Positions 13,921 through 57,395 of a stretch of DNA of 64,000 nucleotides are shown piece after piece (position 1 is the first letter of the stretch; every line of letters begins with the position of its first letter). Both the position numbers and the translations under genes were made by a program. A model generated the notes under the pieces. It did not search any database and was not told the DNA's origin. It saw only the letters and a list, made by a program, of their open reading frames with translations. The DNA comes from Nannocystis bainbridge (GTDB taxonomy: Bacteria; Myxococcota_A; Polyangia; Nannocystales; Nannocystaceae): contig NZ_JAQNDL010000003.1 in the NCBI RefSeq assembly GCF_028368995.1, positions 2,656,001-2,720,000 on the forward strand. The letters run 5' to 3'.

Positions 13921-14876
13921 TGCTGTCCCCAGGGACATTGCCGCCAGGACATGCTGTTTCGGGCATGTCCTCGGGGACATGCCCCGAGGTGTGGGTGATC
14001 GACGCGACGGCGCTGCTGTTCCGCGCCTACTACGGGATGCCGGCCAGGCTGTCGCCGGCGGGCGAGCACGTCGGCGCGGTGCTGGGGCTCGGGCACCTGC
14101 TGCGCGGGCTGCTGCGGCGGGCGCCGGAGCGGGTGGTGCTGGTGTTCGACGCCGGGCGCATGACGTTTCGCAACCGCATCGACCCGCGCTACAAGGCCAA
14201 CCGTGGCGAGCCGCCGCCCGACCTGGCGCCGCAGTTCGAGCTGGCGCGGCGGCTCGGCGCGGCGGCCGGGTTCGTGGCGCTGAGCGTGCCCGACTTCGAG
14301 GCCGACGACCTGATGGCGACGCTGGCCCGCGGGGCGGCGGCGGCCGGCCTGCGCACGCGGCTGCTGAGCGTCGACAAGGACCTGTGCCAGCTCGTATGCG
14401 ACGAGTCGCCCGGGGTGGTGCTCGAGGACCCGCGCACGCAGGCGGTCTGCGACGCGGCCGGGGTGCAGCAGCGCATGGGCGTGCGGCCGTCGCAGGTGGT
14501 CGACTACATGGCGCTGGTCGGCGACACCAGCGACAACGTGCCCGGGGTCGCAGGCGTGGGGCCCAAGGCGGCCCAGGCCCTCATCGCCGCGTTCGGCGAC
14601 CTCGATTCGCTGTACGCCTCGCTCGGGCAGGTCGCCACGCTGCCGCTGCGCGGGGCCAAGGGGCTCTCGGCCAGGCTCGAGGCCGGGCGCGAGGCGGCCT
14701 TCCTCGCGCGCACGCTGGTGCGGCTCCACGACGCGGTCCCGCTCGGCGCGCTCGACCTACACGCGCACACGCGCTGGCGCGGGCCAGGCGAGGACGCGGA
14801 GGAATTCTTCGCCGCGCTCGGCAGCCCGGGCGCGCTCCGCGGGTTCAGGTCGATCGCGGCGCAGGATCGTGCGTGA
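13920..14876 (+). CDS. 5'-3' exonuclease / flap endonuclease (PolI N-terminal-like)
   Basis: VIDATALLFRAYYG, VFDA, YKANR, FEADD, DKD and LVGDTSDNVPGVAGVGPK (H3TH). Start is 13920 (TGATG overlap) or 13965. Confidence 0.9.
   Translation: MLSPGTLPPGHAVSGMSSGTCPEVWVIDATALLFRAYYGMPARLSPAGEHVGAVLGLGHLLRGLLRRAPERVVLVFDAGRMTFRNRIDPRYKANRGEPPPDLAPQFELARRLGAAAGFVALSVPDFEADDLMATLARGAAAAGLRTRLLSVDKDLCQLVCDESPGVVLEDPRTQAVCDAAGVQQRMGVRPSQVVDYMALVGDTSDNVPGVAGVGPKAAQALIAAFGDLDSLYASLGQVATLPLRGAKGLSARLEAGREAAFLARTLVRLHDAVPLGALDLHAHTRWRGPGEDAEEFFAALGSPGALRGFRSIAAQDRA
13924..13979. repeat. Phased 4 x 14-bp array of TGTC-N6-GACA variants
   Basis: TGTCCCCAGGGACA|TTGCCGCCAGGACA|TGCTGTTTCGGGCA|TGTCCTCGGGGACA. Confidence 0.85.
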
Positions 14877-14918
14877 GGGACAAGCGCGCGCCGACGCGGT
14901 AGGCTGGCCCGGTCCTCG

Positions 14919-16163
14919 ATGGCGACCGGCCCCGAAATCGCGTCACCGCCCGAAAGTCCGCCGCCGCCGGGCCACTCGCGCGCGCTGGCGACGGTGTGGT
15001 TCACGCTCTTCCTCGACCTGGTGTCGTTCGGGATCGTCATCCCGGTGCTGCCCTTCTACGCCAAGAGCACCGGCGCGTCGGAGGGCCTGATCGCGCTGCT
15101 GGCGACCGCGTACTCGGCGGCGCAGTTCGTGATGTCGCCGGTGCTCGGCCGCCTCAGCGATCGCCACGGCCGACGCCCGGTGATGCTGATCTCGATCGCC
15201 GGCAGCACGATGGCGATGCTGACCCTCGGGTTCGCGCAGGCGCTGTGGATGCTGTTCCTGTCGCGCACGATCAGCGGGGTGTGCAACGCCAACGTGTCGA
15301 CCGCGTACGCCTACGTGGCCGACCGCGTGCCGCCGCACCAGCGCGCCCGCTACATGGGCATGATGGGCACCGCGGTCGGCCTCGGCTTCATCGTCGGGCC
15401 GTCGCTCGGCGGCCTGCTGGCGCGCGCCGACTGGCCGCAGTTCCCGTTCTTCGTCGGCGCGGGGCTCAGCCTGCTCAACTTCTTGATGGCGCTGGTGTGG
15501 CTGCCCGAGAGCCACCGCCAGCGCGCGGCCGCCAGCGCCGGTCCGCCGCCGCCGCGCCCGTCGCTGCTGGCGGTGGCCCGCGATCGCACGTTCTGGCGCA
15601 GCCAGATCGGCGTGATGGTGACGGTCTACTTCGCCTTCTTCTGCGCCTTTGCGGCCATGGAGGCGACCTTCGCCCTGTTCACCGAGGCCTGCTTCGGCTG
15701 GGGCGAGCAGCAGACCGGCCGGTTCTTCGCGTTCGTCGGCACGGTCATCGTCCTGTTCCAGGGCTTCCTGGTCGGCCGCGCGGTGGCCCGCCTCGGCGAG
15801 CGCCGCACGCTGGCCTCCGGCCTGATGATGAGCACCACCGGCTTCGTGCTGCTGTGCATGTCGCCGTCGTGGCTGTTCGTGCTGTTCGGCGGGTTCTTCA
15901 TCGCCGGCGGCAACGGCCTCATCATGCCGAGCATGTCGGCCCTGGTGTCGCGCAACAGCACCAGCGAGAACCAGGGCATCAACGCCGGCTTCACCCAGTC
16001 GGCCGGCGCGCTCGGGCGCATCGCCGGGCCGATGATCGCGGGGGTCCTGTTCGAGGTGGTCGGGCCGCGCGCGCCGATGGGCTCGTCGGCGCTGCTGGTG
16101 GTGCTGGTGTGCGTGATGGTGCTGGCGCGGGTCCACGAGCAGCGCCCCGAGCCCGGGCGCTGA
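14919..16163 (+). CDS. MFS transporter (TetA/DHA1-like)
   Basis: Motif A GRLSDRHGRRPV, GFIVGPSLGG and about 12 hydrophobic segments. Confidence 0.9.
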   Translation: MATGPEIASPPESPPPPGHSRALATVWFTLFLDLVSFGIVIPVLPFYAKSTGASEGLIALLATAYSAAQFVMSPVLGRLSDRHGRRPVMLISIAGSTMAMLTLGFAQALWMLFLSRTISGVCNANVSTAYAYVADRVPPHQRARYMGMMGTAVGLGFIVGPSLGGLLARADWPQFPFFVGAGLSLLNFLMALVWLPESHRQRAAASAGPPPPRPSLLAVARDRTFWRSQIGVMVTVYFAFFCAFAAMEATFALFTEACFGWGEQQTGRFFAFVGTVIVLFQGFLVGRAVARLGERRTLASGLMMSTTGFVLLCMSPSWLFVLFGGFFIAGGNGLIMPSMSALVSRNSTSENQGINAGFTQSAGALGRIAGPMIAGVLFEVVGPRAPMGSSALLVVLVCVMVLARVHEQRPEPGR

Positions 16164-16167
16164 GGTC

Positions 16168-16860
16168 CTAGCGATCGCGCTGCAGCCGGCCGTCCTCGCC
16201 CCAGCTCGAGGTGCGATAGGCGACGAGGCCGCTGCCGGGATGGTGCCGGTCGGGGTGAATGGTGCGCACGTGGACGTGCTGCGACGGACCCCAGCCGAAC
16301 CCGAGCGAGAGCCGGCCGATCGTCAGCGCCTCGGTGGTCGCGCCGAGCAGCCGCAGCTTCGCGTCGTCGCGGCTGACGCCGGCGAAGTAGCCCTCCTGCG
16401 CCTGCAAGACGGTGTGCACGAGGTGGGCCGGCGCGTCGCCGCGCGCACGGGCCCGCGACCACACGAGCGCCGCGAGCTCGTCGAGCCGGTCGTAGCGGAC
16501 CACCACGAACGAGGCGACGCGACAGACGAAGGTGTCGTCGCCGGCGAACACCACCTCGGCCTCGACCTCGACGGGCACGCGCACGCCGTCGGGGCCCTCG
16601 ACGAACAGGTCGCCGCGCGTCGACTCGAGCCGCAGCTCGGCGCCGGCCGAGAAGTCGGTCGGGCCGACCGGGGTGACGATCGTCGGCCAGTCGCGCAGAT
16701 CCGCCCCCCAGCGGTCGAGGTGATGGTGCGCGACGAAGCGCTCGTGATCGAAGCTGCCGACGTCGCCGAGCCGCAGCTCGCCGGAGAACGGCGGCCACGC
16801 CCCGAAGCCCAGCTCCATGACGCGGCTCGTGTGACGATTCCAGGCGCTGGACAGACTCAT
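16168..16860 (-). CDS. Hypothetical protein, gasdermin-like pore-forming fold suspected
   Basis: 230 aa, GAGGGA RBS, normal codon usage. The patterns GFGAWPP...LRLGDVG.F....F, EVVF....FV and LVHTVLQA resemble bacterial/fungal gasdermin-like proteins (by eye). Confidence 0.55.
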   Translation of the reverse strand: MSLSSAWNRHTSRVMELGFGAWPPFSGELRLGDVGSFDHERFVAHHHLDRWGADLRDWPTIVTPVGPTDFSAGAELRLESTRGDLFVEGPDGVRVPVEVEAEVVFAGDDTFVCRVASFVVVRYDRLDELAALVWSRARARGDAPAHLVHTVLQAQEGYFAGVSRDDAKLRLLGATTEALTIGRLSLGFGWGPSQHVHVRTIHPDRHHPGSGLVAYRTSSWGEDGRLQRDR

Positions 16861-16946
16861 CGATCCCTCGTACGAGGCATAGCAATCGCCCGCGTGATCG
16901 CCTGTATCACTCGAGAATTTTTTCGCAGCGATTACGCTTCGCATAC

Positions 16947-17789
16947 ATGACCCAAATCGACGAGATCACGGCACGCGCCGCCGCCGCCGTGGCCACCGCG
17001 GACGCGCTCCTGATCTGCGCAGGCGCCGGCATGGGCGTCGATTCCGGGTTGCCCGACTTTCGCGGGCCCGAGGGCTTCTGGCGCGCGTATCCGGCGGCCC
17101 GCGAGCTCGGGCTCCAGTTCCACGACCTCGCCGACCCGCGGTGGTTCACCCGCGATCCGGCCCTCGCCTGGGGCTTCTACGGCCACCGCCTGAACCTGTA
17201 TCGCGCGACAGCGCCGCACGCCGGCTTCGCGCTGCTCCGGCGCTGGGCCGCGCGCACGCCCGCGGGGGCGTTCGTCTACACGTCGAACGTGGACGGGCAG
17301 TTCCAGCGCGCGGGCTTCTCCGAGGCGCAGGTCGAAGAGTGCCACGGATCGATCTTGCACCTGCAATGTCTGCAGGGCTGCGACCTGCCGCCCTGGCCCG
17401 TCCCGCAGGCGGCCGTGTCGGTCGATGTCGCGACGCTGCGCGCCGCCCCTCCGTTCTTCACGTGCCCGCGCTGCGCCGGGCTGGCCCGCCCCAACATCAT
17501 GATGTTCAGCGATTTCGCGTGGGACTCGACCCGCGCGAACGAGCAGCGCGAACGCTCGCGCGCGTGGCTGCAGGCGCAGGAGCAGGCGGGCGCGCGCGTG
17601 GCGGTGATCTGCCTCGGCTCGGGCACCGCGATCCAGACGGTGCGCCTGACGGCCGAACGCGCGGCCCGTCGCCCCGGCAATACGCTGATCCGCATCAACC
17701 CCCGCGACCCATGGGTGCCGAGCGGCCAGCTCTCGCTGGCCACGGGGGCGCTCGCAGGCCTGACGGCGATCGACGCAGCGCTGGGCTGA
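16947..17789 (+). CDS. SIR2/sirtuin family NAD-dependent deacylase
   Basis: GAGMGVDSGLPDFRG, TSNVDG, ECHGS, Zn-ribbon Cys pairs, RPNIMMF and IRINP. Confidence 0.9.
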   Translation: MTQIDEITARAAAAVATADALLICAGAGMGVDSGLPDFRGPEGFWRAYPAARELGLQFHDLADPRWFTRDPALAWGFYGHRLNLYRATAPHAGFALLRRWAARTPAGAFVYTSNVDGQFQRAGFSEAQVEECHGSILHLQCLQGCDLPPWPVPQAAVSVDVATLRAAPPFFTCPRCAGLARPNIMMFSDFAWDSTRANEQRERSRAWLQAQEQAGARVAVICLGSGTAIQTVRLTAERAARRPGNTLIRINPRDPWVPSGQLSLATGALAGLTAIDAALG

Positions 17790-17928
17790 TCCCCGCGTTC
17801 TTTAATAATTGAGGTATGCCTGAACGACATGTCTCTCGAGACATGTGACGTGCATCGGCGCCTGCGATCACGGGGTGCTGTGAATGATGTCACCGCGGCG
17901 CGGAGCCGGGCCTGCGCAGTCCCAGCAT

Positions 17929-18609
17929 TCATGTCCTTTCAGACATGTGTCGATCGGTCCTGTCACTCGCTGCGGCGCACGCCGTCTCGGCGCGGCCGGT
18001 GAACGCGGCGACGAAGGCCGGGTGGCGGGCGATGAGGGCCAGGGCGCGGGCCAGGAGGGTGCGGCCGGGCTCGACGCGGTGCCAGGTCGAGGCGCCGCTC
18101 GGGTGCGGCAGGCAGATCGCGTCGGCCTCGACCCCGTGCCAGCGGACCCGCCGGGCCTCGCCGATCACCTCGACCAGCGGGCCCTTGTGGCCGAGGACTT
18201 GCTCGATCGCCACGCCGCCGACCGGGATCACGAGCCGCGGCTGCAGGATGTCGACCTCGCCGGCCAGGAATTGTTGGCAGCGCGCCATCTCGTCGCGGTC
18301 CGGCTTGCGGTCGCCGCCGCCGCCCGCCTTGCCGGGGAAGCAGCGCGCGACCGCCGACATGTACACGCTGTCGCGGAACTCCTGCTCGCTGCGACCGGCG
18401 GCGGCCTCGAACCAGCGGAACAGGGTCTTGCCGGCCGTCCACGCGAACGGTCGCCCGAACCCGCCCTCGCGCGGACCGGGTGCCTGGCCGACGAGCAGCA
18501 CGGGCGTGACGATCGGCGGGCCGTGCACGACGGGGCCGATCATCGCCGGGCAGGCCGTGCACGCCTCCAGCTGTCGGTGCAGCACGGTCAGTCGAGTTCG
18601 CGGGTCCAT
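17929..18609 (-). CDS. Uracil-DNA glycosylase family protein
   Basis: CxxC..M, LVGQAPG..E, RPFAWTAG, RCFPG and LPHPSG motifs. Confidence 0.88.
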   Translation of the reverse strand: MDPRTRLTVLHRQLEACTACPAMIGPVVHGPPIVTPVLLVGQAPGPREGGFGRPFAWTAGKTLFRWFEAAAGRSEQEFRDSVYMSAVARCFPGKAGGGGDRKPDRDEMARCQQFLAGEVDILQPRLVIPVGGVAIEQVLGHKGPLVEVIGEARRVRWHGVEADAICLPHPSGASTWHRVEPGRTLLARALALIARHPAFVAAFTGRAETACAAASDRTDRHMSERT

Positions 18610-18841
18610 CGTGGGGCGTCGCGCGGCAGTGTGAATCACGCCTCGTGGGCGCGCCAGCGCGCACGCGAGGACTCACGCGCGCGCGGCCCTGCCGCCGCTG
18701 CCCGCGGTGCGGGCGTCGGCGACGGGCTTCACCTGGCCCGAGGACCATCCGTGAGCGGCGTACTCTGCCTGTCCCAAAGGCCAGCTACGTCGCGGCTTCA
18801 GTCTGTCGCGCCAGGGCGGACTGGCAATGATACGACCTGGC

Positions 18842-19500: not shown

Positions 19501-22278
<2,778 letters not shown>

Positions 22279-22294
22279 CAGCTACCTCGAAGAA

Positions 22295-25021
<2,727 letters not shown>

Positions 25022-26000: not shown

Positions 26001-26204
26001 CGTTCTCTCCTCCGCGAAAAGAAAACCGCTTATCTTCGATCCTATCCGTCGCTGCCGGCGGCGTGAAGGCTCGGGGGCTGGGCGAGAACGCGCGTGCGTG
26101 ATTCACGGGCTTTTGCGGCTGCCTGGGGGGTTTGGGGTCGGCTCACGTCGAGACGTGGCGCGCCGCGGGTCGCTCCTTCTATGATGGGGGGGACCTCTGC
26201 TGCG

Positions 26205-27655: not shown

Positions 27656-27697
27656 TGCACTTCCGGGCATGTCCTGGGGGACATGCCCTTCGGGACA
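27656..27697. repeat. Phased 3 x 14-bp array between convergent genes
   Basis: TGCACTTCCGGGCA|TGTCCTGGGGGACA|TGCCCTTCGGGACA. Confidence 0.85.
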
Positions 27698-33704: not shown

Positions 33705-33807
33705 GCCCGGAGCTGTCCTCCGGGACATGTTATTTCGCGACTGCGCCCGGAGCTGTCCTCCGGGACATGTGAGACGGCCGTGCCCGGAGCTGTCCTCCGG
33801 GACACGT
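33705..33807. repeat. Three direct repeats GCCCGGAGCTGTCCTCCGGGACA containing the 14-bp palindrome
   Basis: Identical 23-bp units start at 33705, 33745 and 33782. Confidence 0.9.
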
Positions 33808-41224: not shown

Positions 41225-41294
41225 TGGTCGTCACGACATGTCCTATTTAACATGCTCAAAAGGGCATGTCATCATGAACATGTCCTATGTGCCA
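41225..41294. repeat. Phased 5 x 14-bp degenerate array
   Basis: TGGTCGTCACGACA|TGTCCTATTTAACA|TGCTCAAAAGGGCA|TGTCATCATGAACA|TGTCCTATGTGCCA. Confidence 0.8.
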
Positions 41295-42552: not shown

Positions 42553-43362
42553 CGCGAGGATGGTATCGGCGCCCGGGTCGTCGCGCGAGGCCGATTGTTT
42601 CCGATGCAGCAACCCGACAGTGCTGCGATCGGCCTCGTGCCCCCACCGATGATTGCGTGTCATCCGGCGATCTACAGGGTAGACTGCTGATGCGAGCGCC
42701 GTCGGGAAGCTGCTGAGTCTGCCGACACGCCTGCGCCGGGATGGACCGGCTCTCGCGGCCCGTTCCGGCATCTCGCCGCGCTCGGCGCCGGTCCGGGCCG
42801 GAATTCGCCGGAGATTCTCCCGAGCTGCATCTGCGGCGGGTTCGCCGTGCGCGCGGTGTTTCACCGCCCGTCGACCGGCCATTCGCAGCGCGAAGCTGTT
42901 TTGCGAGCTGCTTCGATTTGGTCGTTCGCGCCATCACGACCGGGCCGGGTAGCGTTCGCACAGCGTTCGCACAAGGACGACGGGCGCGCGCCCGCGGCCG
43001 GGCCGTCGGCAGGCTCTCCGACCCCACCTGGCGGATCTCGCTTCCGGCCGTCTGGCTGCGCTTGCGGGCAGCTTTCTCTGGCCGACGGCGTTCACGCAGG
43101 GGCTGCACGGTGGTCTGCAGCCCCTGTTCAATGTCCGTCCAGACATGTTCGAACAGACATGCAGCAGACTGCGCAGGACAATGTGCTGATGATAACACCG
43201 TATGTACGATGATACGTGCGTCGCACCGACCCAGGGCGGAAGCGACCGCCATGTCTGCGCGATCGCAAGGACCGATGTTCACCAATCGCGGGGGGGCTGG
43301 TCAGCGCGGAGCGTGGTCAGTACCCTGGATTTTGGCCCGCTCGGCGGGTCGGAGTAGCTGCG

Positions 43363-44247: not shown

Positions 44248-44534
44248 CGCAGCCGTCGGCGCAAATCGCCATTGGGTGACCCCACCCCCGGTGATTCGCG
44301 GGCGCGAATCGCCGCGGAACGTCGTACGAGCATTCGGCCGCGCGCGCCCGCCGGGCGGCGTGCGGCCGCCTCCACGCCGCCGCGCCGGGGTGAGACCGAT
44401 GTGAGGCGTTCGCCGCTGGTGTGGTGATTGCCGCAGCGGCCCGAGTGAATGCACTTCGATGCGATAGAAACAAGTGGCAAAAGTGCTCGTCCACGGTTCG
44501 CTCGCCCGCTCGCGGCGGGGAGTTCGCGTGCGAA

Positions 44535-44592
44535 GCAAAATTGTCCATGATTAAATCATAGCAGTCTATATAATCAGGATAGCGATCAAAAC
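44535..44592. promoter_or_regulatory. AT-rich promoter/operator upstream of the NRPS-like gene
   Basis: Inverted repeat ATGATT-A-AATCAT at 44547-44559, with TATAAT nearby. Confidence 0.5.
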
Positions 44593-44652
44593 CGCTGGGA
44601 CGGCCGTGGCCTGCACGCGCCGCCGTGACCGCGATTTGCCGGAGGACTGAGC

Positions 44653-47802: not shown

Positions 47803-47809
47803 TCAAAAC

Positions 47810-47857
47810 TGTCCAGGAGGACATGCCCAATCGGACATGCCCTCCAGGACATGTCTC
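47810..47857. repeat. Phased 3 x 14-bp array between convergent genes
   Basis: TGTCCAGGAGGACA|TGCCCAATCGGACA|TGCCCTCCAGGACA|TGTCTC. Confidence 0.85.
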
Positions 47858-48915
47858 TACAAAATACCTGCCCGATCGACCAGGCGCCAGGCGATGCGCT
47901 CGCCGGCGCGCAGCGGCACCAGCTCGTCCCGGCCGAACGGATAGCTGGCCGGGACGTCCCAGGCCGCCCGCTCGAGGCGTACGGTCTCGGTGTTGACCGG
48001 CAGGTCGTAGAACCGCGGGCCGAACCGGCTGGCGAAGCCCTCGAGCCGCGCCAGCGCCCCCGCGCGCTCGAACGCCTCGGCGTACAGCTCGATCGCCGCG
48101 TGGGCGGTGAACATCCCGGCGCAGCCGCACGCGCTCTCCTTGGCCCCGCGCGGGTGCGGGGCGCTGTCGGTGCCGAGGAAGAATTTGGCCTCGCCGCTGG
48201 TGGCGGCCGCGAGCAGCGCCTCGCGGTGGAGCTCGCGCTTCAGCACCGGCAGGCAGTAGTAGTGCGGGCAGATGCCGCCGGTGAACATGGCGTTGCGGCT
48301 GTACAGCAGGTGATGCGCGGTGATCGTGGCGGCCACCTTCGGGCCGGCGGCGCGGACGAAGGCGACGGCGTCGCGGGTGGTGATGTGCTCGACGACCACG
48401 CGCAGGTCGGGCAGGCGCTCGAGCAGCGGCGCCAGGTGGCGCTCCAGGAACACCGCCTCGCGGTCGAACACGTCGACGCCCGGATCGGTGACCTCGCCGT
48501 GGACCAGCAGCGGCAGCCCGAGCGCCTGCATGGCCTCGAGCACCGGCAGCACCCGCGCCAGATCGGTCACGCCCGACTGCGAATTGGTGGTCGCGCCGGC
48601 CGGGTAAAGCTTGACCCCGTGCACGAACCCGCAGTCGCGCGCGCGGGCGATCTCCTCCGGCGCCGTCGCGTCGGTCAGGTACAGCGTCATCAGCGGCGTG
48701 AACCGCCCCGCCAGCGCCGTCGGCACGGCCGCGACGATGCGCGCGCGATAGGCCGCCGCCTCCTCGACCCGCGTGACCGGCGGCTTCAGGTTGGGCATCA
48801 CGATCGCCCGCGCGAACTGCCGCGCGGTGTGGGCCACCGCGTCGGCCAGCACGACGCCGTCGCGCAGGTGGAGGTGCCAGTCGTCGGGGCGTACGAGCTC
48901 GAGCGCGTCGGTCAC
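47857..48915 (-). CDS. pyrC: Dihydroorotase (type II, homodimeric)
   Basis: [44 protein letters not shown] and GTDSAPH. Confidence 0.96.
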
Positions 48916-48956
48916 GGCGCCCCCATAACACGCGCCCGGGCCGCGCGCCCGCGGAT

Positions 48957-51497: not shown

Positions 51498-51590
51498 GCG
51501 AGCCCGAGCTTACCGGAGCCGCGCGCCCGCGTCGCGTGGCCTGGCGACCTCGCGCGGATGCGACCTGTCCCTCGGGACATCTCTCGGGCT

Positions 51591-53312
51591 TCACCAGCCG
51601 TCCGCGACCGCACCGACGCCGGGCCCGAGCCCCGTCACGGTCAGATCGGCGGCCGTCACCGGCCCGCCCGGCGTCGCCGTCGGCGCCACGAACAGCAGCG
51701 GCAAGGCCCCCGCGCCGTGCGACGACGCCGCCAGCCCGACGTGCGTCAGCGGCTCGGCGAAGCAATGCTCGGCGATCGCCGTCCAGGTCGCCCCGTCGCT
51801 CGAGCCGAGCCCGCGCACGCAGGTCGCGTCGAGGGTCCGCTCGAGCCGCACGAACGCCGGCGACTCGCCCGTCAGCCCGGCCACGCCCGCGAACTCGAGC
51901 GCCTGCGTGGACGCGCCGGCCACCTCGCGCAGCTGCACGCGCAGCGGGTGATCGTCGGCGGGCCGGCAGATCGCCAGGTACGCCGCGTCGGCCTCCAGCC
52001 CCGCGCGGGCCGCCAGACACGCCTTGGCCCACGGCTCGACGTGGCTGTTGGGCGCGGCGATCGCCGCCGTCCACGCGACATCTCCTTCACCCACTTCGGC
52101 CCACGCCAGCAGCCCCTCGTCGCTGCTGTCCCACAGGTCGCCCGAGTCGACCGTCACCGCCACGATCGCCGCCGACTCGCGCTCCGGCGCCTCGCACGCG
52201 TCGATGCAGGTGAACGGCCAGCCCTGCGGCCCCGCGGTGTTCGCCCACGGATCTTCGTCGACGTTGATCTGATTGGTGGCGATGTGATGCACCCCCGCCT
52301 GCTCGGACTCCTCCCACGCACCCTCGTCGTCGGCCACCCACACGCGGCTGACCAGCCCGGCCGCGCGCACCGCCGCGGCCAGCTCCACGTCGCCGAGCGC
52401 CAGGTTGAACACGATCGCCTCCGCGTGCTCGCCCAGGTCTCGCCCGTCGCTCAGCCCGGGCGCGACGAAGGCCGCGCGCGCCCCCGCGTCGGCGCCGACG
52501 TAGCTCGCCAGCGGCCCTGACGGATCGTCGAGGTCGCCGCCGGTCAACATCGCGATCACCCGCCCGCGCCAGCTCTCGAGCCGCGGCCAGGCGCAGCCGC
52601 GTCGGGTCACCGCGTCCTGCAGCGTGGTCGCGCCGGGGCAGTCCGCGAGCAGCTCGGCCGGCCGCACCAGCGCCGCGCCGAAGGCCGCGTCCAGCAGCGC
52701 GTCGAGGTCGCCCGGCTGATGCCCGCCGCCGAACCCGTCCTTCAGATCGATCCACAGCGTCACCACCTCGTGCTCGGGCACCGCGCGAGCGAACGCCGCC
52801 ACCTGCCCCAGACACTGCGACAGGCTGCGGCAGTGCGTGTCGTCGTCGACGATGTCGGTGTGATACACGAACCAATCGCCGGCCAGCGCCGACTCGAACG
52901 CCTTGCCGGTGTGAATATCGAGCTCGAGCGAGCGGATCCGGTGATACACGAATTGGTCGAACAGCGCCTCGTGCCGCTGAAACGCGTTGTGCGCTGATTT
53001 CTGCCGCACCTCGTGATAGCGTGGGCCGCTCGCCTCGGCGCCCGTGGTCCCGTCCGTCGATTCACCGCTGCTCGTCGCCGGCTCCGTGGTCGTCACGGTC
53101 GAGCTCGTCGAGGTCGTCACGGTCGAGCTCGTCGAGGTCGACGACGAGGTCGAAGTCGTCGTCGTCGTGCCCGGCGCCTCCCCGCTCGTCGGTACCTCGC
53201 TGCCGGTCGTCGTGCTCGTCGCGGTCCCGGTCCCGGCCTCGCTCGCGGTCCCACCCGACGCGCCTCCGCAGGCCGCAAACACGACGAAGAGGGTCCGCGA
53301 GAGACGGTGCAT
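51591..53312 (-). CDS. PI-PLC-like (X-domain) phosphodiesterase lipoprotein with a C-terminal beta-sandwich
   Basis: FAAC lipobox, Thr-rich linker, KSAHNAF, RSLELDIH, VYH, WIDLKD, WP.L...RGR and IATN. Confidence 0.78.
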   Translation of the reverse strand: MHRLSRTLFVVFAACGGASGGTASEAGTGTATSTTTGSEVPTSGEAPGTTTTTSTSSSTSTSSTVTTSTSSTVTTTEPATSSGESTDGTTGAEASGPRYHEVRQKSAHNAFQRHEALFDQFVYHRIRSLELDIHTGKAFESALAGDWFVYHTDIVDDDTHCRSLSQCLGQVAAFARAVPEHEVVTLWIDLKDGFGGGHQPGDLDALLDAAFGAALVRPAELLADCPGATTLQDAVTRRGCAWPRLESWRGRVIAMLTGGDLDDPSGPLASYVGADAGARAAFVAPGLSDGRDLGEHAEAIVFNLALGDVELAAAVRAAGLVSRVWVADDEGAWEESEQAGVHHIATNQINVDEDPWANTAGPQGWPFTCIDACEAPERESAAIVAVTVDSGDLWDSSDEGLLAWAEVGEGDVAWTAAIAAPNSHVEPWAKACLAARAGLEADAAYLAICRPADDHPLRVQLREVAGASTQALEFAGVAGLTGESPAFVRLERTLDATCVRGLGSSDGATWTAIAEHCFAEPLTHVGLAASSHGAGALPLLFVAPTATPGGPVTAADLTVTGLGPGVGAVADGW

Positions 53313-53620
53313 GGCACGAGCTGACCGCCACCCGGCCGCCGCTGTCAAGCCGACCTGTCTCCGGGGACATCTCGGGTCCCGCGCGGCCCTGGGAGCCCCG
53401 CAGGGGGCTTCTGCGAGGTTTGCGCGGTCCGCCTTTTCGCGCCAGCGGGCTCACCGCCCGACCCCTGTTCGCGACCTTTCTCCGCGCTGAGCCTGCTCTC
53501 GCCTCTCGCCGCTCGTGGCCCGCGCGTGCCCACGATCGTCGGCGTATCCCCCCGCGGGGGAGCACCCACGCACGGGCCGGGCGGCTTGACAGCGCGGCCT
53601 CGCGCGCTACCAGTCCAGGC

Positions 53621-54565
53621 ATGCCGGCCAGAGCAATTTGGGAAGGAACCATCGGTTTTGGTCTCGTTCAGATCCCCGTCGGGCTGTACTCCGCCGAGAC
53701 CCGGGACGAGCTCGACTTCGACATGCTCGATCGGCGCGACATGTCGCCCGTCGGTTATCAGCGGTACAACCGCGAGACCGGCGAGCCCGTCGAATGGGAC
53801 GACATCGTCAAGGGTTATGCCATCAAGAAGGGCGAGTACGTGATCGTCGAGCCCGAGGACTTCAAGCGCGCCAGCGTCAAGGCGACCCAGACCGTCGACA
53901 TCGTCCAGTTCGCCGACGCCGAGGCCATCGATCCGACCTTCTTCGAGAAGCCCTACGTGCTCGTGCCCGGCAAGCGCGGCGCCAAGCCGTACGTGCTGCT
54001 GCGCGAGGCCCTGCGCAAGGCCGGCAAGGTCGGCATCGCCCGCGTCGTCATCCGCACCCGCGAGAGCCTCGCCGCGGTGATGGTCAAGGGCGACGCCCTC
54101 GTGCTCGAGCTGCTGCGCTACGCCCACGAGCTCAACAAGATCGACGATTTCGACCTGCCCAAGGGCAAGGACGCGCCCAAGATCTCCGCGCCCGAGCTCA
54201 AGATGGCCGAGCGGCTCATCGACGAGATGACCGCCGAGTTCAAGCCCGAGGAGTTCAAGGACACCTACCGCGACGACCTGCTGGCCTTCATCAAGAAGAA
54301 GGCCAAGGGCGAGGAGATCGAGGAGGTCGACGTCGAGGCCGAGGCGCCGGCGACCAATGTGGTCGACATGATGGCGCTGCTGAAGAAGAGCCTCACGCGC
54401 GGCGGCAAGGCCCCTGCGGCCGAGACCGACAAGCAGAAGAACAAGCCCCGGCGTAGCGCGGCGCGCAACGAGAAGCCGGCGGCCAAGGCCAAGAAGGCGA
54501 CCGCCACCAACCGCAAGAAGAAGCCGGCCAAGCGCGCCAAGACGACCCGGCGAAAGGCGGCCTGA
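53621..54565 (+). CDS. ku: NHEJ Ku protein with a basic C-terminal tail
   Basis: RAIWEG.I.FGLV.IPV, IVKGY, Y.LLREAL and NVVDMM.LLK.SL motifs. Confidence 0.96.
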   Translation: MPARAIWEGTIGFGLVQIPVGLYSAETRDELDFDMLDRRDMSPVGYQRYNRETGEPVEWDDIVKGYAIKKGEYVIVEPEDFKRASVKATQTVDIVQFADAEAIDPTFFEKPYVLVPGKRGAKPYVLLREALRKAGKVGIARVVIRTRESLAAVMVKGDALVLELLRYAHELNKIDDFDLPKGKDAPKISAPELKMAERLIDEMTAEFKPEEFKDTYRDDLLAFIKKKAKGEEIEEVDVEAEAPATNVVDMMALLKKSLTRGGKAPAAETDKQKNKPRRSAARNEKPAAKAKKATATNRKKKPAKRAKTTRRKAA

Positions 54566-57351
54566 TGGCGTCGCTGGACTCCTATCACCGCAAGCGCGAC
54601 TTCACCCGCACCTCGGAGCCGCGCGGCGAGACCCCGAAGCGCCGCTCGCAGGGTGAGTTCATCATCCACAAGCACGCGGCGACCCGGCTCCACTACGACC
54701 TGCGGCTCGAGATCGACGGCGTGCTCAAGAGCTGGGCGGTGCCGAAGGGCCCGAGCCTCGACCCGCACGACAAGCGGCTCGCCGTCCACGTCGAGGACCA
54801 CCCGCTCGAGTACGGCGGCTTCGAGGGCACCATCCCGCAGGGCGAGTACGGCGGCGGCTCGGTGGTGCTGTGGGACCGCGGGCGCTGGTACCCCGAGGGC
54901 GATGCGCGCGCCGACTACCGCGCCGGCAAGCTCAAGTTCCGCTTCGACGGCCACAAGCTCCACGGCGCCTACACGCTGGTGCGCATGCACGGCCGTCGGG
55001 GCGACGATCACGACAACTGGCTGCTGATCAAGGAAGCCGACGAGGAGGCCAGCGACGACGGCGAAGCCCTGGTGCGCGACCAACCCGAGAGCGTGATCAG
55101 CGGCCGTACCGTCGAAGAGGTCGCCGCCGGCGTGCCCGCGAAGAAGCAGGCCAGGAACAAGAAAAAGGCGACGAAGAAGGCTCCTGCCAAGAAGACCCCC
55201 AAGAAATCGACCCCCAAGAAGGCGACCGCCAAGAAGGCGGCCAAAGTCGCGGCAAAGAAAGCCCCCGCCAAGAAATCCGCGGCCAAGAAGTCGACCGCCA
55301 AGAAGGCGGCCAAAGTCGCGGCAAAGAAAATCCCCGCCAAGAAGACAGCCAAGAAATCCACGACCAAGAAGACCGCCGCCAAGAAATCCGCCAAGAAGAC
55401 CCCCGCGATCAAGGCCACCAGCCGGCCGCGCGCCACCCGGAAGAAGACCAGCAAGAAGACCGCCGCCAAGGCCGAATCTGCCCCAGCGCGCGCGCTCCCG
55501 GCCCGCATCGCCCCCGAGCTGGCCACCCTGGTAGAAAAAGTCCCGCCCGGCGACGAGTGGGTCCACGAGATCAAGTTCGACGGCTATCGCCTGCTCGTCC
55601 GCCTCGACGGTGACGACATTCGCCTCATCACCCGCGGCGAGCAGGACTGGACCGAGCGGCTCGCCCCGCTCGCCAAATCACTACAGCGGCGCTTCGGCGA
55701 CCGGCGCCTGCTCGTCGACGGCGAGCTCGTGCACGTCGACGACGACGGCCTCACTCGCTTCGGCCCGCTGCAGGCCGCCCTCGCCGAGGAGCGCACCGGG
55801 GAGCTCGTGTTTTATGCCTTCGACCTGCTCCACCTCGACGGTCACGACCTGCGCGGCCTCCCGCTGGTCGAGCGCAAAGAGCTGCTCGCCGCCCTGCTCC
55901 CGCCCGAGGACGCCCCCGGGCGCGTGCGCCTGTCGGAGCACGTCGTCGGCGGCGGCGAGGAGCTGCTCGCACGCGCCTGCTCGCTCGGCCTCGAGGGCAT
56001 CCTCGCCAAGCGCGCCGACGCCCCCTATCGCAGCGGCCGCACCCGCGACTGGCTGAAGATCAAGTGCGGCCGCCGCCAGGAGGTCGTCGTCGGCGGCTAC
56101 GCGACCGCGCGCAGCGGCCCGCGGGCCCTCGGTGCCCTGCTGATCGGCGTATTCGACGACGACGGCAAATTGCAGTACGCCGGCAAGGTCGGCACCGGCT
56201 TCGATTTCGCCGAGGCCGCCCGGCTCAAAAAATTGCTCGCCGCCCGCGAGGCCCCGCGCTCCCCCTTCGCCGGCCGCCTCCCGCCCGGCCTCGGCGACGT
56301 CCATTTCGTCCGCCCCGACGTCGTCATCGAGGTCCGCTTCGGCGAGTGGACCCGCGACGATCGCATGCGTCACGCCGTCTACGAGGGCGTGCGCGAGGAC
56401 AAGCGGCCCAAGCAGGTCCAGCGCGAGACCCCGGCCGCCGCCCCGACCAGCGCCACGACCGAGGTCCTCGGCGTCGCCTTGAGCAACCCCGGCCGCGTGC
56501 TGTGGCCGGACGATGGCATCACCAAGCGCGACCTCGCCGAGTACTACGAGAAGATCGCCGGGTGGATCCTCCCGCAGGTCGCCGAGCGCCCGCTCAGCCT
56601 CGTGCGCTGCCCTGACGGCGTCGGCAAGCCGTGCTTCTTCCAGCGCCACATGAAGCACGACCTGCCCGAAGGCATCCACGCGATCGATCTCGACGGCGAC
56701 GGCGAGCCGGCCTACGTCTACGTCCGCGACGCCGCGGGCCTGGTCGGCCTGGCCCAGATCGGCGTGCTCGAGCTGCACGCCTGGGGCGCCACCGTCGCCG
56801 ATCCCGACGGCCCCGACCGCCTGGTCCTCGACCTCGACCCTGCCGAGGATGTCCCCTGGGACATGGTCAAAGGGGCAGCCCGGGCCATGCACGAGCGCCT
56901 CGCCCAGCTCGACCTCGACAGCTTTTTGAAGACCACCGGCGGCAAGGGCTTGCACGTCGTCGTCCCGCTGACCGCCGGTCGCCAGAGCTGGGCCGAGGTC
57001 AAGGCGTTCGCCCGCGGGATCGCCCGCGAGTTCAGCCTCGCCGACCCCGAGCATTTTGTCGACGTCGCCGCCAAGCTCAAGCGGCGCGGCAAGATCTACA
57101 TCGACTACCTCCGCAACGACCGCAAGGCCACCAGCGTCGCCGCCTACTCGCCGCGGGCTCGCCCCGGCGCGCCCGTGTCGGTCCCGCTGCGCTGGTCCGA
57201 GCTCGCGGGCCTCGAAGCCCCGCAGACCTACGACCTCACAAGCACCGTCGCTCGCCTCGCCAAGCTGCGCAGCGACCCCTGGCGCGAGCTGGCGCGCGTC
57301 CGCCAGGTCCTGACGCCCGCCCGTCTGCGCGCCGTCGGCGTCAAGAAATAA
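54565..57351 (+). CDS. ligD: DNA ligase D (phosphoesterase-ligase-polymerase) with a Lys/Ala-rich insert
   Basis: Phosphoesterase HAATRLHYDLRLE, ligase EIKFDGYR / EGILAK / WLKIK, polymerase DLDP / KTTGGKGLH / IDYLRN; TGATG coupling to ku. Confidence 0.96.
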   Translation: MASLDSYHRKRDFTRTSEPRGETPKRRSQGEFIIHKHAATRLHYDLRLEIDGVLKSWAVPKGPSLDPHDKRLAVHVEDHPLEYGGFEGTIPQGEYGGGSVVLWDRGRWYPEGDARADYRAGKLKFRFDGHKLHGAYTLVRMHGRRGDDHDNWLLIKEADEEASDDGEALVRDQPESVISGRTVEEVAAGVPAKKQARNKKKATKKAPAKKTPKKSTPKKATAKKAAKVAAKKAPAKKSAAKKSTAKKAAKVAAKKIPAKKTAKKSTTKKTAAKKSAKKTPAIKATSRPRATRKKTSKKTAAKAESAPARALPARIAPELATLVEKVPPGDEWVHEIKFDGYRLLVRLDGDDIRLITRGEQDWTERLAPLAKSLQRRFGDRRLLVDGELVHVDDDGLTRFGPLQAALAEERTGELVFYAFDLLHLDGHDLRGLPLVERKELLAALLPPEDAPGRVRLSEHVVGGGEELLARACSLGLEGILAKRADAPYRSGRTRDWLKIKCGRRQEVVVGGYATARSGPRALGALLIGVFDDDGKLQYAGKVGTGFDFAEAARLKKLLAAREAPRSPFAGRLPPGLGDVHFVRPDVVIEVRFGEWTRDDRMRHAVYEGVREDKRPKQVQRETPAAAPTSATTEVLGVALSNPGRVLWPDDGITKRDLAEYYEKIAGWILPQVAERPLSLVRCPDGVGKPCFFQRHMKHDLPEGIHAIDLDGDGEPAYVYVRDAAGLVGLAQIGVLELHAWGATVADPDGPDRLVLDLDPAEDVPWDMVKGAARAMHERLAQLDLDSFLKTTGGKGLHVVVPLTAGRQSWAEVKAFARGIAREFSLADPEHFVDVAAKLKRRGKIYIDYLRNDRKATSVAAYSPRARPGAPVSVPLRWSELAGLEAPQTYDLTSTVARLAKLRSDPWRELARVRQVLTPARLRAVGVKK

Positions 57352-57395
57352 CATGCCTCTTCGGGCATGTCCAAAAGGTCATTGTCAACACCCGC

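What the first reader, a model, noticed from the sequence alone, without database searches (positions are those of the whole stretch)
13924..57381. The palindrome forms head-to-tail arrays with exact 14-bp periodicity
Seen: abutting TG...CA units in phase at 13924-13979 (4 units), 27656-27697 (3), 41225-41294 (5), 43132-43159 (2), 47810-47851 (3) and 57354-57381 (2). The internal bases differ between neighbouring units, while the junction (RRRCATGYYY-like) and the 14-bp register are kept. Simple slippage duplication would be expected to give near-identical units. Inference: there is selection for cooperative or polymerising binding at a 14-bp register, or site-specific addition of units by an enzyme.
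Basis: partly seen in the sequence, partly recalled or inferred. Interest (0 to 1): 0.75.

Follow-up and report, generated by a model that had tools for sequence, protein, structure and literature searches.

The report
Gene-end palindrome lattice with 14-base register
A 14-letter palindrome that this soil myxobacterium writes thousands of times just behind its protein genes is often stacked head to tail in exact register, and related species keep the register and the joints while the inner letters drift, so the stacks look like a selected, still unread gene-end signal and not fresh copying slips.

Summary
All six arrays are at the stated coordinates. Across the genome, CATG-to-CATG distances peak at 14, 28, 42, 56 and 70 (3736, 2073, 1586, 751, 383; background about 100-300).

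- **Unit:** TGTCC-N4-GGACA occurs 1987 times against about 9.5 expected. It stands alone in 493 of 1987 cases. The CATG joint stands alone in only 33 of 956.
- **Neighbours:** Adjacent units are hardly more alike than random units.
- **Age:** One array is held in register in six same-genus genomes. Between two species, CATG is 75-84% identical, the arms 63-73% and the N4 51-58%.
- **Indels:** Spacing is unchanged in 102 of 119 intervals. Of the 17 changes, 7 are multiples of 14.
- **Place:** Arrays sit just behind stop codons of protein ORFs (22.4%) but not behind tRNA genes (4 of 102). No RAYT gene was found.
- **Range:** The lattice is confined to one genus; named records with it are Nannocystis.

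My best reading is overlapping mRNA 3'-end hairpins that grow by unit-length slippage and are kept by selection. The factor that reads them is unknown. The scan found this unit family before, on other DNA of this genome (e1-6871219).

The parts
13924..13979 (.). Array of 4 units: TGTCCCCAGGGACA TTGCCGCCAGGACA TGCTGTTTCGGGCA TGTCCTCGGGGACA. It starts 3 nt behind the TGA of the AAA-ATPase ORF 12085-13920 (+) and ends at the next co-directional ORF.
   Evidence: Sequence; ORFs. The array is present in register in six same-genus genomes. Five have the same length, the CAT[G/T] joints are kept and the inner letters have diverged. RNA fold z = -2.8.
27656..27697 (.). Array of 3 units: TGCACTTCCGGGCA TGTCCTGGGGGACA TGCCCTTCGGGACA. 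It lies in the 62-nt convergent gap between the histidine-kinase ORF 26094-27641 (+) and ORF 27704-29539 (-).
   Evidence: Sequence; ORFs. It folds as a 10-bp stem GGGCAUGUCC/GGACAUGCCC on both strands, z about -2.5. G007 has a 3-unit array directly behind the same upstream gene, although 1.8 kb is inserted after it.
41225..41294 (.). Array of 5 units with A+T-rich inner letters. The whole array is a long imperfect palindrome. It lies in a long gap between ORF 39097-40857 (-) and ORF 43216-44247 (+), so it is not behind a called stop codon.
   Evidence: Sequence. RNA fold z = -5.3 on both strands, as one nested hairpin. No chain or strict unit is found in the 965-nt orthologous stretch of G007. 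One substitution (41271 A>C) appears in metagenome contigs. Two sigma-70-like matches overlap it.
43132..43159 (.). Array of 2 units: TGTCCGTCCAGACA TGTTCGAACAGACA. It lies 57 nt upstream of ORF 43216-44247 (+).
   Evidence: Sequence. RNA fold is not better than shuffles (z = -0.2). It is absent from the 541-nt orthologous stretch of G007. This is the weakest of the six.
47810..47851 (.). Array of 3 units: TGTCCAGGAGGACA TGCCCAATCGGACA TGCCCTCCAGGACA. It starts 8 nt behind the stop of the 1049-aa adenylation/reductase ORF 44653-47802 (+), in a convergent gap. Unit 3 is nearly the reverse complement of unit 1.
   Evidence: Sequence; Pfam. RNA fold z = -4.7, nested hairpin. G007 keeps three units in register with different inner letters (item 54).
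57354..57381 (.). Array of 2 units: TGCCTCTTCGGGCA TGTCCAAAAGGTCA. It starts directly behind the TAA of the LigD ORF 54565-57351 (+).
   Evidence: Sequence; Pfam. 8-bp hairpin, z = -2.7. The G007 orthologue is degenerate (item 55).
896..943 (.). A strict unit at 896 and an in-phase CATG pair at 926-943, behind the stop of the ORF that ends at 866 (+).
10417..10565 (.). Loose cluster of four units (10417, 10489, 10524 strict; 10551 degenerate) with spacers of 13-58 nt, not in 14-base register. It lies in the gap between ORFs 8141-10219 (-) and 10648-11706 (+) or 10600-11736 (-).
33705..33805 (.). Three direct repeats of 37-40 bases, each carrying one strict unit (GCCCGGAGC TGTCCTCCGGGACA). Here the unit is duplicated with a longer period.
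17828..17947 (.). Two single bounded units (17828-17845, 17930-17947) in the convergent gap between ORFs 16947-17789 (+) and 17929-18639 (-).
   Evidence: Both are kept in G007 (items 49 and 50).

Best explanation
The arrays are stacks of a genus-specific gene-end hairpin module.

**The module.** The autonomous unit is TGTCC-N4-GGACA. When units abut, the ends ..CA and TG.. make the self-complementary joint CATG. Each unit's 5-bp stem can then run on into the arms of both neighbours, giving a stem of up to 10 bp: GGRCA-TGYCC / GGRCA-TGYCC. An array therefore encodes overlapping hairpins in a fixed 14-nt register. Hairpins 28 nt apart can form together.

**Proposed function (inferred).** These hairpins form in the 3' ends of mRNAs that read out of protein-coding genes, from either side in convergent gaps. 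They act as a 3'-end structure: a barrier to 3' exonucleases and/or a U-tract-less termination or processing signal. Because the letters, and not only the pairing, are kept, a sequence-specific factor probably reads them.

**Origin (partly shown).** Arrays grow and shrink by replication slippage of one or several whole units. They then persist for longer than the species. The N4 letters drift at about the neutral rate, while the arms, the CATG joint and the register are held by purifying selection.

**Shown:** anatomy, periodicity, place, age, selection footprint, whole-unit indels.
For: **Periodicity and copy number:**

**The unit is autonomous and the joint is a by-product.**
- Strict units are isolated in 493 of 1987 cases; strict joints in 33 of 956.

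**Place.**
- Of 801 arrays with at least 3 in-phase CATG, 373 lie in convergent gaps and 283 in co-directional gaps. In the latter the median distance behind the upstream stop is 54 or 32 nt, and about 330-355 nt lie before the next start. A further 38 lie in divergent gaps and 105 inside called ORFs.
- Among convergent gaps, 49% hold a unit and 30% an array. For co-directional gaps the figures are 19% and 9%, for divergent gaps 10% and 3%. Chains are longest in convergent gaps.
- 1371 of 6119 ORFs have a unit within 120 nt behind the stop, peaking at 0-20 nt. Only 299 have one upstream of the start.
- 4 of 102 tRNA genes have a unit within 120 nt downstream (random windows 3.3%; Fisher p = 4e-7). 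Three of those four show a G+C hairpin followed by a T-rich stretch before the unit.

**Age and selection.**
- The six-genome alignment of the array at 13924 keeps the register and the joints.
- In 94 intergenic arrays (179 units), G000 against G007, CATG is 0.75-0.84 identical, the arms 0.63-0.73 and the N4 0.51-0.58. Other non-coding columns are 0.566.
- Spacing is unchanged in 102 of 119 intervals.

**Slippage.**
- 7 of 17 spacing changes are -14 (3 times), +14 (2 times), +28 and +56.
- One relative has three identical units.
- Identical neighbours make up 1.2% of adjacent pairs against 0.08% for random pairs. Similarity does not fall from lag 1 to lag 4, which points to duplication of multi-unit blocks.

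**Hairpins.**
- Predicted 10-bp stems and nested folds, z from -2.5 to -5.3 in 7 of 8 folds.
- Between species, within-unit pairs show 25 double changes against about 13.8 expected, and 18 of them keep Watson-Crick pairing. The junction control shows 10 against 10.4.
- Quality of adjacent units is anti-correlated (r = -0.20), as expected if neighbours compete for the shared CATG.

**RNA level.**
- In co-directional gaps, G.U-compatible mismatches on the sense strand outnumber A.C by 841 to 633 (p = 7e-8). The N4 letters show almost no such skew.

**Not mobilised by a RAYT:** PF01797 gives 0 matches, while the control genomes match.
Against: - There are no RNA data. No transcriptome of this organism was found, so no 3' end has been seen at an array.
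- There is no T-run behind the arrays, and the sense and antisense sides are alike. They are therefore not canonical intrinsic terminators.
- Covariation is weak and confounded. The odds ratios of 1.4-2.0 can come partly from mixing real units with chance matches in G+C-rich DNA.
- With the other positions fixed, only transition-type doubles are enriched (C-G at 3/12: 146; T-A at 4/11: 38). G-C and A-T swaps are not. Around strict units the -3/+3 flank pair shows no covariation.
- The units are almost perfectly strand-symmetric even where only one strand should be transcribed. This fits a reader of double-stranded DNA as well.
- The G.U bias is significant at only 3 of 6 pair positions taken singly. 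Transcription-linked mutation bias could produce part of it.
- Two of the six arrays of the finding (41225, 43132) are not behind a called stop codon.
- Gene calls come from my own crude GC3-based caller, which covers only 72% of the genome.
Confidence: 0.5

Rival explanations
1. This is the first reader's view: a lattice of binding sites on double-stranded DNA. A sequence-specific protein binds the half-site TGTCC. It pairs head to head across N4 and tail to tail across CATG, so it can polymerise along an array with one subunit per 7 bp. It would mark or organise gene ends, for example for topology as gyrase does at E. coli BIMEs (recalled, not checked here).
For: - Sequence specificity is strong: 1987 exact units against about 9.5 expected, and other spacers give only 3-16.
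- Complementary swaps that would keep a hairpin (G-C, A-T) are not enriched.
- The units are nearly strand-symmetric.
- CATG is the best-kept part and the register is kept.
- Arrays are commonest and longest between convergent genes.
Against: - The joint 10-mer hardly ever stands alone (33 of 956), while the unit does (493 of 1987).
- The halves of a joint are not selected to be a palindrome (odds ratio 0.61 at positions 12/3; GGGCATGCCC 75 against 59.6 expected).
- There is a G.U bias on the sense strand.
- The arrays hug the stop codon of protein ORFs and do not lie anywhere in the gap. They are missing behind tRNA genes.
- No candidate protein was found or looked for.
Confidence: 0.25
2. 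Selfish repeat. The units are spread or extended by an enzyme: REP-like mobilisation, or site-specific addition of units at CA|TG. They are merely tolerated at gene ends.
For: - The lattice is confined to one genus, and copy number differs between species (1670 against 1005-1162 in-phase triples).
- Arrays are present or absent between species: 41225 and 43132 are missing in G007, and 4 of 138 are absent.
- Whole-unit gains and losses occur.
- CGTC-type REPs are also reported to lack a dedicated transposase (PMC3733652, passages read).
Against: - No Y1/RAYT transposase was found in a genome of 5 large contigs that is 90.5% complete by markers.
- The unit does not begin or end with a GTAG or CGTC tag; its ends are TG and CA.
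- Orthologous arrays stay at the same place and in the same register in six genomes.
- The arms and joints are more conserved than the N4 at orthologous sites. This needs selection at each site, not only copying.
- Tolerance alone does not explain the peak 0-20 nt behind stop codons inside gaps with a median of about 550 nt.
Confidence: 0.12
3. Neutral minisatellite. The arrays are only slippage products of a 14-base palindrome with no function of their own. The register is kept simply because indels are rare.
For: - Slippage is real.
- The unit is also duplicated with other periods of 36, 42 and 48 bases, so these loci are prone to tandem duplication.
Against: - Adjacent units are almost as different as random units, yet the CATG and arm letters are kept between species while the N4 drifts.
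- Within arrays I counted 10 spacing changes that are not multiples of 14 in 119 intervals. The flanking non-coding alignments of the smaller set showed many indels. This comparison is biased, because only conserved CATGs were used.
- Arrays are longer and commoner where two genes end.
Confidence: 0.08

Closest known systems
REP elements and their BIME arrays of enterobacteria and pseudomonads (GTAG- and CGTC-tagged REPs; PMC3733652, passages read)
   Same: - High-copy imperfect palindromes outside genes, mostly behind gene 3' ends and between convergent genes.
- Often clustered in arrays.
- Thought to act as RNA hairpins (mRNA stabilisers, terminators) and as protein-binding sites.
- Lineage-restricted.
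   Different: - The unit is 14 bases, against 20-40.
- It has no GTAG or CGTC tag and no RAYT gene.
- Units abut with no linker and share a self-complementary CATG, giving an exact 14-base lattice. BIMEs alternate two REP orientations with defined linkers (recalled).
- The paper's text holds none of the terms Myxococc, Sorangium or Deltaproteobacteria.
TRIT, the 'Tuberculosis Rho-independent terminator' motif of Mycobacterium (PMC3152330, passages read)
   Same: - A genus-restricted palindromic hairpin of conserved sequence that hugs gene ends.
- It lacks the usual terminator features and mostly works in both directions.
- Its authors also inferred an unknown factor that reads the conserved double-stranded motif.
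   Different: - TRIT has 147 copies; this genome has thousands of units.
- TRIT sits around -8 relative to the stop codon, inside the ORF. Here the units start mostly at +2 to +25.
- The passages I read do not mention head-to-tail arrays or a fixed register.
- The sequence is different.
Canonical intrinsic terminators (G+C hairpin plus U-tract)
   Same: A hairpin directly behind a gene.
   Different: - There is no T-run behind the arrays.
- The stem letters are fixed, not free.
- G+C hairpin plus T-run sequences lie directly behind three of the four tRNA genes listed, and the palindrome units are no commoner behind tRNA genes than in random windows.
Intergenic short direct-repeat arrays such as the TAACTGA heptamer repeats of marine Beggiatoaceae (PMC4679880, search listing and start of abstract only)
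   Same: Many intergenic arrays of a very short unit in exact register, lineage-restricted, with a suspected post-transcriptional role.
   Different: Those are direct, non-palindromic heptamers with identical units. Here the units are palindromes of 14 bases with free inner letters.
p53 response-element half-site RRRCATGYYY
   Same: The joint GGACATGTCC has the same letters. All 15 listed of the 47 papers that hold this string are on eukaryotic subjects, most of them p53 binding sites.
   Different: This is a coincidence of letters. The organism is a bacterium, the joint is a by-product of abutting units, and no p53-like protein was looked for.

Membership tests
REP / BIME (RAYT-associated extragenic palindromes) | High-copy imperfect palindrome outside genes, mainly behind 3' ends | tested here: met
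   1987 strict units against about 9.5 expected. Of 801 arrays, 656 lie in convergent or co-directional gaps close to the upstream stop.
REP / BIME (RAYT-associated extragenic palindromes) | GTAG (or CGTC) tetranucleotide at one end of the palindrome (PMC3733652) | tested here: not met
   The unit ends are TG...CA. The flank consensus is R-C-(A/C) | TGTCC...GGACA | (T/G)-G-Y, symmetric on both sides.
REP / BIME (RAYT-associated extragenic palindromes) | A RAYT (Y1 / IS200-IS605-type tyrosine transposase) gene in the genome, flanked by the repeats | tested here: not met
   PF01797 gives 0 matches in the six-frame search of the window's own genome (5 contigs, 90.5% complete). 6 of 14 control genomes match.
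REP / BIME (RAYT-associated extragenic palindromes) | Unit of 20-40 bases; arrays of alternating orientation with linker motifs | tested here: not met
   The unit is 14 bases and symmetric. Units abut with no linker.
TRIT-type genus-specific gene-end hairpin | Conserved-sequence palindromic hairpin, restricted to one genus, tightly placed at gene ends | tested here: met
   - Strict double unit: 8 of 10 other same-genus genomes, 0 of 20 genomes of other genera.
- Lattice: 1005-1162 in the 5 large same-genus genomes, 0-4 in 20 other genera.
- The first unit peaks 0-20 nt behind the stop.
TRIT-type genus-specific gene-end hairpin | Match to the TRIT sequence and structure model itself | not testable with these tools
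   No TRIT model was at hand. The Rfam 15 scan of the window at gathering scores gave 0 matches of any family. TRIT is reported only from Mycobacterium.
Canonical intrinsic terminator | Hairpin followed by a U-tract on the transcribed strand | tested here: not met
   For 490 arrays in co-directional gaps, T fraction at +1..+12 is 0.206 on the sense side against 0.199 on the control side. TTTT within 15 nt occurs in 2.9% against 1.8%.
Slippage minisatellite | Near-identical neighbouring units; length changes in whole units | tested here: inconclusive
   - Only 1.2% of 1670 adjacent pairs are identical, though this is 15-fold over random.
- 7 of 17 spacing changes between species are multiples of 14; 10 are not.
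- So slippage contributes, but it does not explain the conservation.
Binding-site array on double-stranded DNA (polymerising protein) | Each palindromic site (joint or unit) is selected as a symmetric site and occurs on its own | tested here: inconclusive
   - The unit occurs alone in 493 of 1987 cases. The joint occurs alone in 33 of 956, near the chance count of 9.5.
- Joint halves are negatively associated (odds ratio 0.61).

The most novel reading that the evidence does not exclude
The lattice is the track of an undescribed, genus-specific reader that binds one subunit per half-site and spreads along the array, on RNA or on DNA. The number of units would then set the strength of a gene-end signal, and unit-length slippage would give each gene a heritable, tunable dial for 3'-end formation or mRNA life. 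This would be a new kind of gene-end marking system, not a REP variant.
Probability: 0.15. Interest if true: 0.85.

Novelty: new variant of a known kind. Interest (0 to 1): 0.62.

Why it matters
- **An unknown gene-end signal.** About a fifth of this organism's called protein ORFs (1371 of 6119) end with this signal, and half of the convergent gene pairs (545 of 1102) share one. Yet it is neither a canonical terminator nor a RAYT-type REP. If the reading is right, a large part of gene-end biology in this group of natural-product-rich myxobacteria rests on an unknown reader.
- **A natural dissection of the signal.** Between species the free letters, the arms, the joint and the register evolve at different rates. 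This tells which features to mutate first.
- **Practical use.** Annotation and heterologous expression of gene clusters from this genus would gain from knowing what these arrays do at operon ends.
- **A clean case of slippage followed by selection.** Tandem duplication makes the arrays, and purifying selection on an overlapping structural code then keeps them.

Tried and rejected
1. **RNA evidence.** The look-up of sequencing runs found only soil and other metagenome runs kept as contigs, and no transcriptome of the organism. I laid four DNA runs on window 40001-60000. They gave short, low-depth contigs, one substitution in the array at 41225, and no whole-unit indel among the rows shown (14 indel rows were not shown). 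This says nothing about strain-level gain or loss.
2. **Rfam.** The scan of the window gave 0 matches.
3. **RAYT.** None was found.
4. **U-tract test.** Negative.
5. **Covariation in arrays.** The odds ratios looked like support for 10-bp stems. They are confounded by chance matches in G+C-rich DNA. The cleaner tables show only transition-type doubles enriched, so I do not count covariation as strong evidence.
6. **Arrays inside genes.** Of the 105 cases, 64 lie within 150 nt of my over-extended start calls and 6 within 60 nt of a stop. The 35 deep ones may be caller errors. I therefore make no claim about arrays inside genes.
7. **A fixed distance between stop codon and array.** The distribution is broad (2-25 nt) with small peaks at +2, +11 and +16/17. 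There is no sharp coupling to the ribosome.
8. **A 42-base super-period (4 helical turns).** Strict units 42 apart are slightly commoner than those 14 or 28 apart (27 against 16 and 18). Many of these pairs belong to 42-base tandem repeats without a lattice between them, so I dropped the idea.
9. **Terminator and promoter scan of 40001-60000.** It added nothing clear.
10. **Literature.** Searches for the motif, for Nannocystis repeats and for REPs in myxobacteria found no description. A search for the work on REPs close to stop codons did not return it, so that point is recalled only.

Full report
**1. The observation**

All six arrays are at the stated coordinates, with 4, 3, 5, 2, 3 and 2 abutting TG...CA units of exactly 14 bases. 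In the first array one joint reads CATT and not CATG.

The window is C2:2656001-2720000 of a genome of 11.05 Mb in 5 contigs with 71.5% G+C.

Genome-wide counts:
- The strict unit TGTCC-N4-GGACA occurs 1987 times against about 9.5 expected from base composition. The same arms with spacers of 2, 3, 5 or 6 occur 3-16 times. The joint GGACATGTCC occurs 956 times against 9.5.
CATG-to-CATG distances are 3736 at 14, 2073 at 28, 1586 at 42, 751 at 56 and 383 at 70. Background is about 100, or about 300 at multiples of three. GACA and TGTC behave the same way.
- Chains of in-phase CATG number 1265 (n=2), 328, 213, 159, 75, 22, 2, 1 and 1 (n=12).

**2. Anatomy**

In units bounded by CATG on both sides (3736), the composition is TG-(T .57/C .31)-C .77-C .75-N4-G .71-G .72-(A .61/G .25)-CA. 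The joint is therefore RRRCATGYYY-like, as described.

The unit, not the joint, is the self-standing element.
- 493 of 1987 strict units have no recognisable neighbour arm on either side.
- Only 33 of 956 strict joints lack both partner arms, which is close to the chance count of the 10-mer.
- The two halves of a joint are not selected to mirror each other (odds ratio 0.61 at positions 12/3).

CATG is therefore what two abutting units make.

Strict units are followed by TGT, and preceded by ACA, in about half of the cases. The unit also occurs in loose clusters (window 10417-10560) and inside direct repeats of 36-48 bases (window 33705-33805; genome examples). The 14-base lattice is thus the commonest of several clustered forms, not the only one.

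**3. Are neighbours really different?**

Yes.
- Over 1670 adjacent pairs, the ten inner positions agree at 4.48 against 4.20 for random unit pairs.
- Identical N4 occurs in 4.5% against 1.1%, and identical units in 1.2% against 0.08%.
- Similarity does not fall from lag 1 to lag 4.
- The match quality of adjacent units is anti-correlated (r = -0.20).

Most arrays are therefore not young duplicates. A small enriched class of identical neighbours and repeated blocks shows that tandem duplication of one to four units does happen.

**4. Where they lie**

The gene calls are my own crude GC3-based calls. They cover 72% of the genome, and starts are over-extended.

*Gap type.*
- Of 801 arrays with at least three in-phase CATG, 373 lie between convergent genes and 283 in co-directional gaps. 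In the latter they sit a median 54 or 32 nt behind the upstream stop, and about 330-355 nt before the next start. A further 38 lie in divergent gaps and 105 inside called ORFs.
- Most of the 105 are caller artefacts: 64 lie within 150 nt of the called start.
- 49% of convergent gaps hold a bounded unit and 30% an array. The figures are 19% and 9% for co-directional gaps and 10% and 3% for divergent gaps. Chains are longest in convergent gaps.

*Distance from the stop.*
- 1371 of 6119 ORFs (22.4%) have a unit within 120 nt behind the stop, peaking at 0-20 nt. Only 4.9% have one upstream of the start.
- The distance is broad (2-25 nt) and not sharply fixed.

*tRNA genes.*
- Only 4 of 102 tRNA genes have a unit within 120 nt downstream. 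Random windows give 3.3%, and Fisher p against ORFs is 4e-7.
- Three of the four downstream stretches that were printed begin with a G+C hairpin followed by a T-rich stretch.

*No T-run.* The arrays carry no T-run, and their two sides are alike.

*The six arrays of the finding.* Four sit directly behind stop codons (13924, 27656, 47810, 57354). Two (41225, 43132) lie in a long gap without a called gene end.

**5. Distribution**

- The double strict unit is found in 8 of 10 other genomes of the same genus. It is found in 0 of 8 other genera of the family and in 0 of 12 other families of the class.
- A scan of one genome per species of bacteria and archaea returned 78 loci. 75 are in records named Nannocystis, Nannocystaceae or Myxococcales, and three are single hits elsewhere. 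The list may be capped at 80.
- Three in-phase CATG occur 1670 times here and 1005-1162 times in the five large same-genus genomes. They occur 2-62 times in five smaller, fragmented same-genus genomes and 0-4 times in 20 other genera. The reversed control gives 0-2.

**6. Age and selection**

Five same-genus genomes hold window 13300-14600 at 88-93% identity. The array at 13924 is present in all six genomes. Five have the same length, the register is the same and the CAT[G/T] joints are kept, while the inner letters differ widely.

I fetched 1.276 Mb of one relative, G007, and could anchor 138 arrays of this genome on both sides.
- For the 94 intergenic arrays (179 units), identity per position is 0.75-0.84 at the four CATG letters, 0.63-0.73 in the arms and 0.51-0.58 in N4. 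Other non-coding columns are 0.566.
- The N4 letters serve as an internal control in the same, mostly gap-free alignments.
- Between consecutive conserved CATGs the spacing is unchanged in 102 of 119 intervals. The 17 changes are -14 (3 times), +14 (2 times), +28 and +56, then +/-1 or 2 (4 times), -15, and 26, 30, 53, 75 and 82. Two of the rows are the same relative locus matched by two copies in this genome.
- One orthologous array in the relative has three identical units.
- Arrays also come and go. 4 of 138 are absent in the relative. Of the finding's six arrays, 27656 and 47810 are kept in register, 57354 is degenerate, and 41225 and 43132 are absent.

The genome-wide peak exists. Most orthologous arrays show no indel, and whole-unit indels make up 7 of 17 changes where about 1 in 14 would be expected. 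Indels that are not multiples of 14 do occur.

**7. Hairpin or double-stranded site; RNA or DNA?**

*For hairpins.*
- Predicted folds give 10-bp stems that reach into both neighbours (27665-27688), or long nested hairpins (41220-41300, z = -5.3; 47804-47860, z = -4.7). 7 of 8 folds are better than shuffles at z of -2.5 or lower, and one is not (z = -0.2).
- Between species, within-unit pairs show 25 double changes against about 13.8 expected from the single-change rate, and 18 keep Watson-Crick pairing. The junction control shows 10 against 10.4.
- In a 10-bp stem the CATG letters lie in the middle for both alternative registers. This would explain why they are kept best. It would also explain why the register matters and why good units alternate with poorer ones (inference).

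*For the RNA level.*
- In co-directional gaps, mismatches that would be G.U on the sense strand outnumber those that would be G.U on the antisense strand by 841 to 633 (p = 7e-8).
- Taken singly, this is significant at 3 of 6 pair positions. The N4 letters show almost no such skew.
- The tie to stop codons of protein ORFs, and the absence behind tRNA genes, point the same way.

*Against.*
- The covariation is confounded by chance matches in G+C-rich DNA.
- With the other positions fixed, only transition-type doubles are enriched, and G-C or A-T swaps are not.
- Flank pairs around strict units hardly co-vary.
- The units are nearly strand-symmetric.
- The letters themselves are under selection, so a sequence-specific reader is needed in any case. 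A reader of double-stranded DNA is not excluded.
- No transcriptome was available.

**8. Mechanism I commit to (confidence 0.5)**

A genus-specific gene-end hairpin module is stacked by unit-length slippage into a lattice of overlapping hairpins. The hairpins form in the 3' ends of mRNAs from either side. They serve as a 3'-end barrier or a termination or processing signal without a U-tract, and an unknown sequence-specific factor reads them.

Rivals:
- a protein lattice on double-stranded DNA (0.25);
- a selfish repeat that is spread or extended by an enzyme (0.12);
- a neutral minisatellite (0.08).

**9. Comparison with known systems**

It works like REP/BIME elements and like TRIT of Mycobacterium.
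- It is not a member of the RAYT-type REPs. It has no GTAG or CGTC tag (PMC3733652, passages) and no RAYT gene. Its unit is 14 bases and there are no linkers.
- TRIT (PMC3152330, passages) shares the restriction to one genus, the conserved letters, the gene-end place and the inferred unknown reader. It has 147 copies, lies at about -8, and is not described as arrays in the passages I read.
- It is not a canonical terminator.
- I recall, but could not retrieve, work showing that E. coli REPs within about 15 nt of a stop codon lower translation of the upstream gene through ribosome stalling. About 40% of the units that follow an ORF here start within 20 nt of the stop (577 of 1371), so this is a further function to test.

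**10. Novelty**

- Paper searches for the motif, for Nannocystis repeats and for REPs in myxobacteria found no description. The library lacks most subscription journals.
I re-derived the gene-end place and checked the TRIT paper myself. I could not confirm its statement about selection inside genes.
- New here:
  - the lattice itself;
  - that the joint is a by-product of abutting units;
  - the conservation of register and joints between species, with free inner letters;
  - the whole-unit indels;
  - the absence behind tRNA genes;
  - the absence of a RAYT gene;
  - the sense-strand G.U bias.

I rate it a new variant of a known kind, with interest 0.62.

Noticed in passing
window 33705-33805: Three direct repeats of 37-40 bases, each holding one strict unit with the same N4 (GCCCGGAGC-TGTCCTCCGGGACA). 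Similar 36-, 42- and 48-base tandem repeats carrying the unit occur elsewhere, for example G000:C2:1217543 (36 bases, 5 copies), C2:2323868 (48 bases, 5 copies) and C3:716856 (42 bases, 4 copies).
   Followed up: partly
window 10417-10565: Four units in one gap at irregular spacing (72, 35 and 27 bases from start to start). Clusters of the unit are therefore not always in the 14-base register.
   Followed up: partly
G000:C1:20972-21050, C1:4432153-4432224 and C2:628298-628385 (tRNA genes): The stretches just behind these three tRNA genes begin with a G+C-rich hairpin followed by a T-rich stretch. Textbook-like intrinsic terminators therefore seem to exist in this organism beside the palindrome lattice. 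Only the four tRNA genes that have a unit downstream were printed.
   Followed up: partly
window about 18700 onwards, compared with G001, G003, G005, G007, G010: Collinearity with five same-genus genomes holds for window 950-18700 and then breaks. In G007 the rest of the window lies inverted some 40-90 kb away. Alignment blocks tend to end in the intergenic gaps that carry units.
   Followed up: partly
whole genome against relatives: This genome has about 50% more in-phase CATG triples (1670) than five larger same-genus genomes (1005-1162), although it is smaller (11.05 against 12.0-13.2 Mb). The lattice has expanded in this lineage or shrunk in the others.
   Followed up: no
genome-wide, ORF ends: The stop codon TGA is sometimes part of the lattice. 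Small peaks occur where a unit starts 2 nt behind the stop (56 cases; TGA-CA-TG...), and where a unit ends so that its following TG begins the TGA (13 cases at -17).
   Followed up: partly
window 41225-41299: The 5-unit array has unusually A+T-rich inner letters. It is a long palindrome (z = -5.3), is absent from the G007 orthologous stretch, and overlaps two sigma-70-like promoter matches, one on each strand.
   Followed up: partly
window 5117-7072, 19501-25021, 30286-32610, 54565-57351: Gene content seen with Pfam: an angiotensin-converting-enzyme-like M2 peptidase; two adjacent Ser/Thr kinases with TPR tails; a subtilase with MopE-type metal-binding motifs; and a three-domain LigD (phosphoesterase, ligase, primase-polymerase).
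   Followed up: no
G000:C1:4526244 and C2:3023446: Two arrays in different contigs, with their flanks, match the same G007 locus with the same alignment. This points to a duplicated segment in this genome.
   Followed up: no
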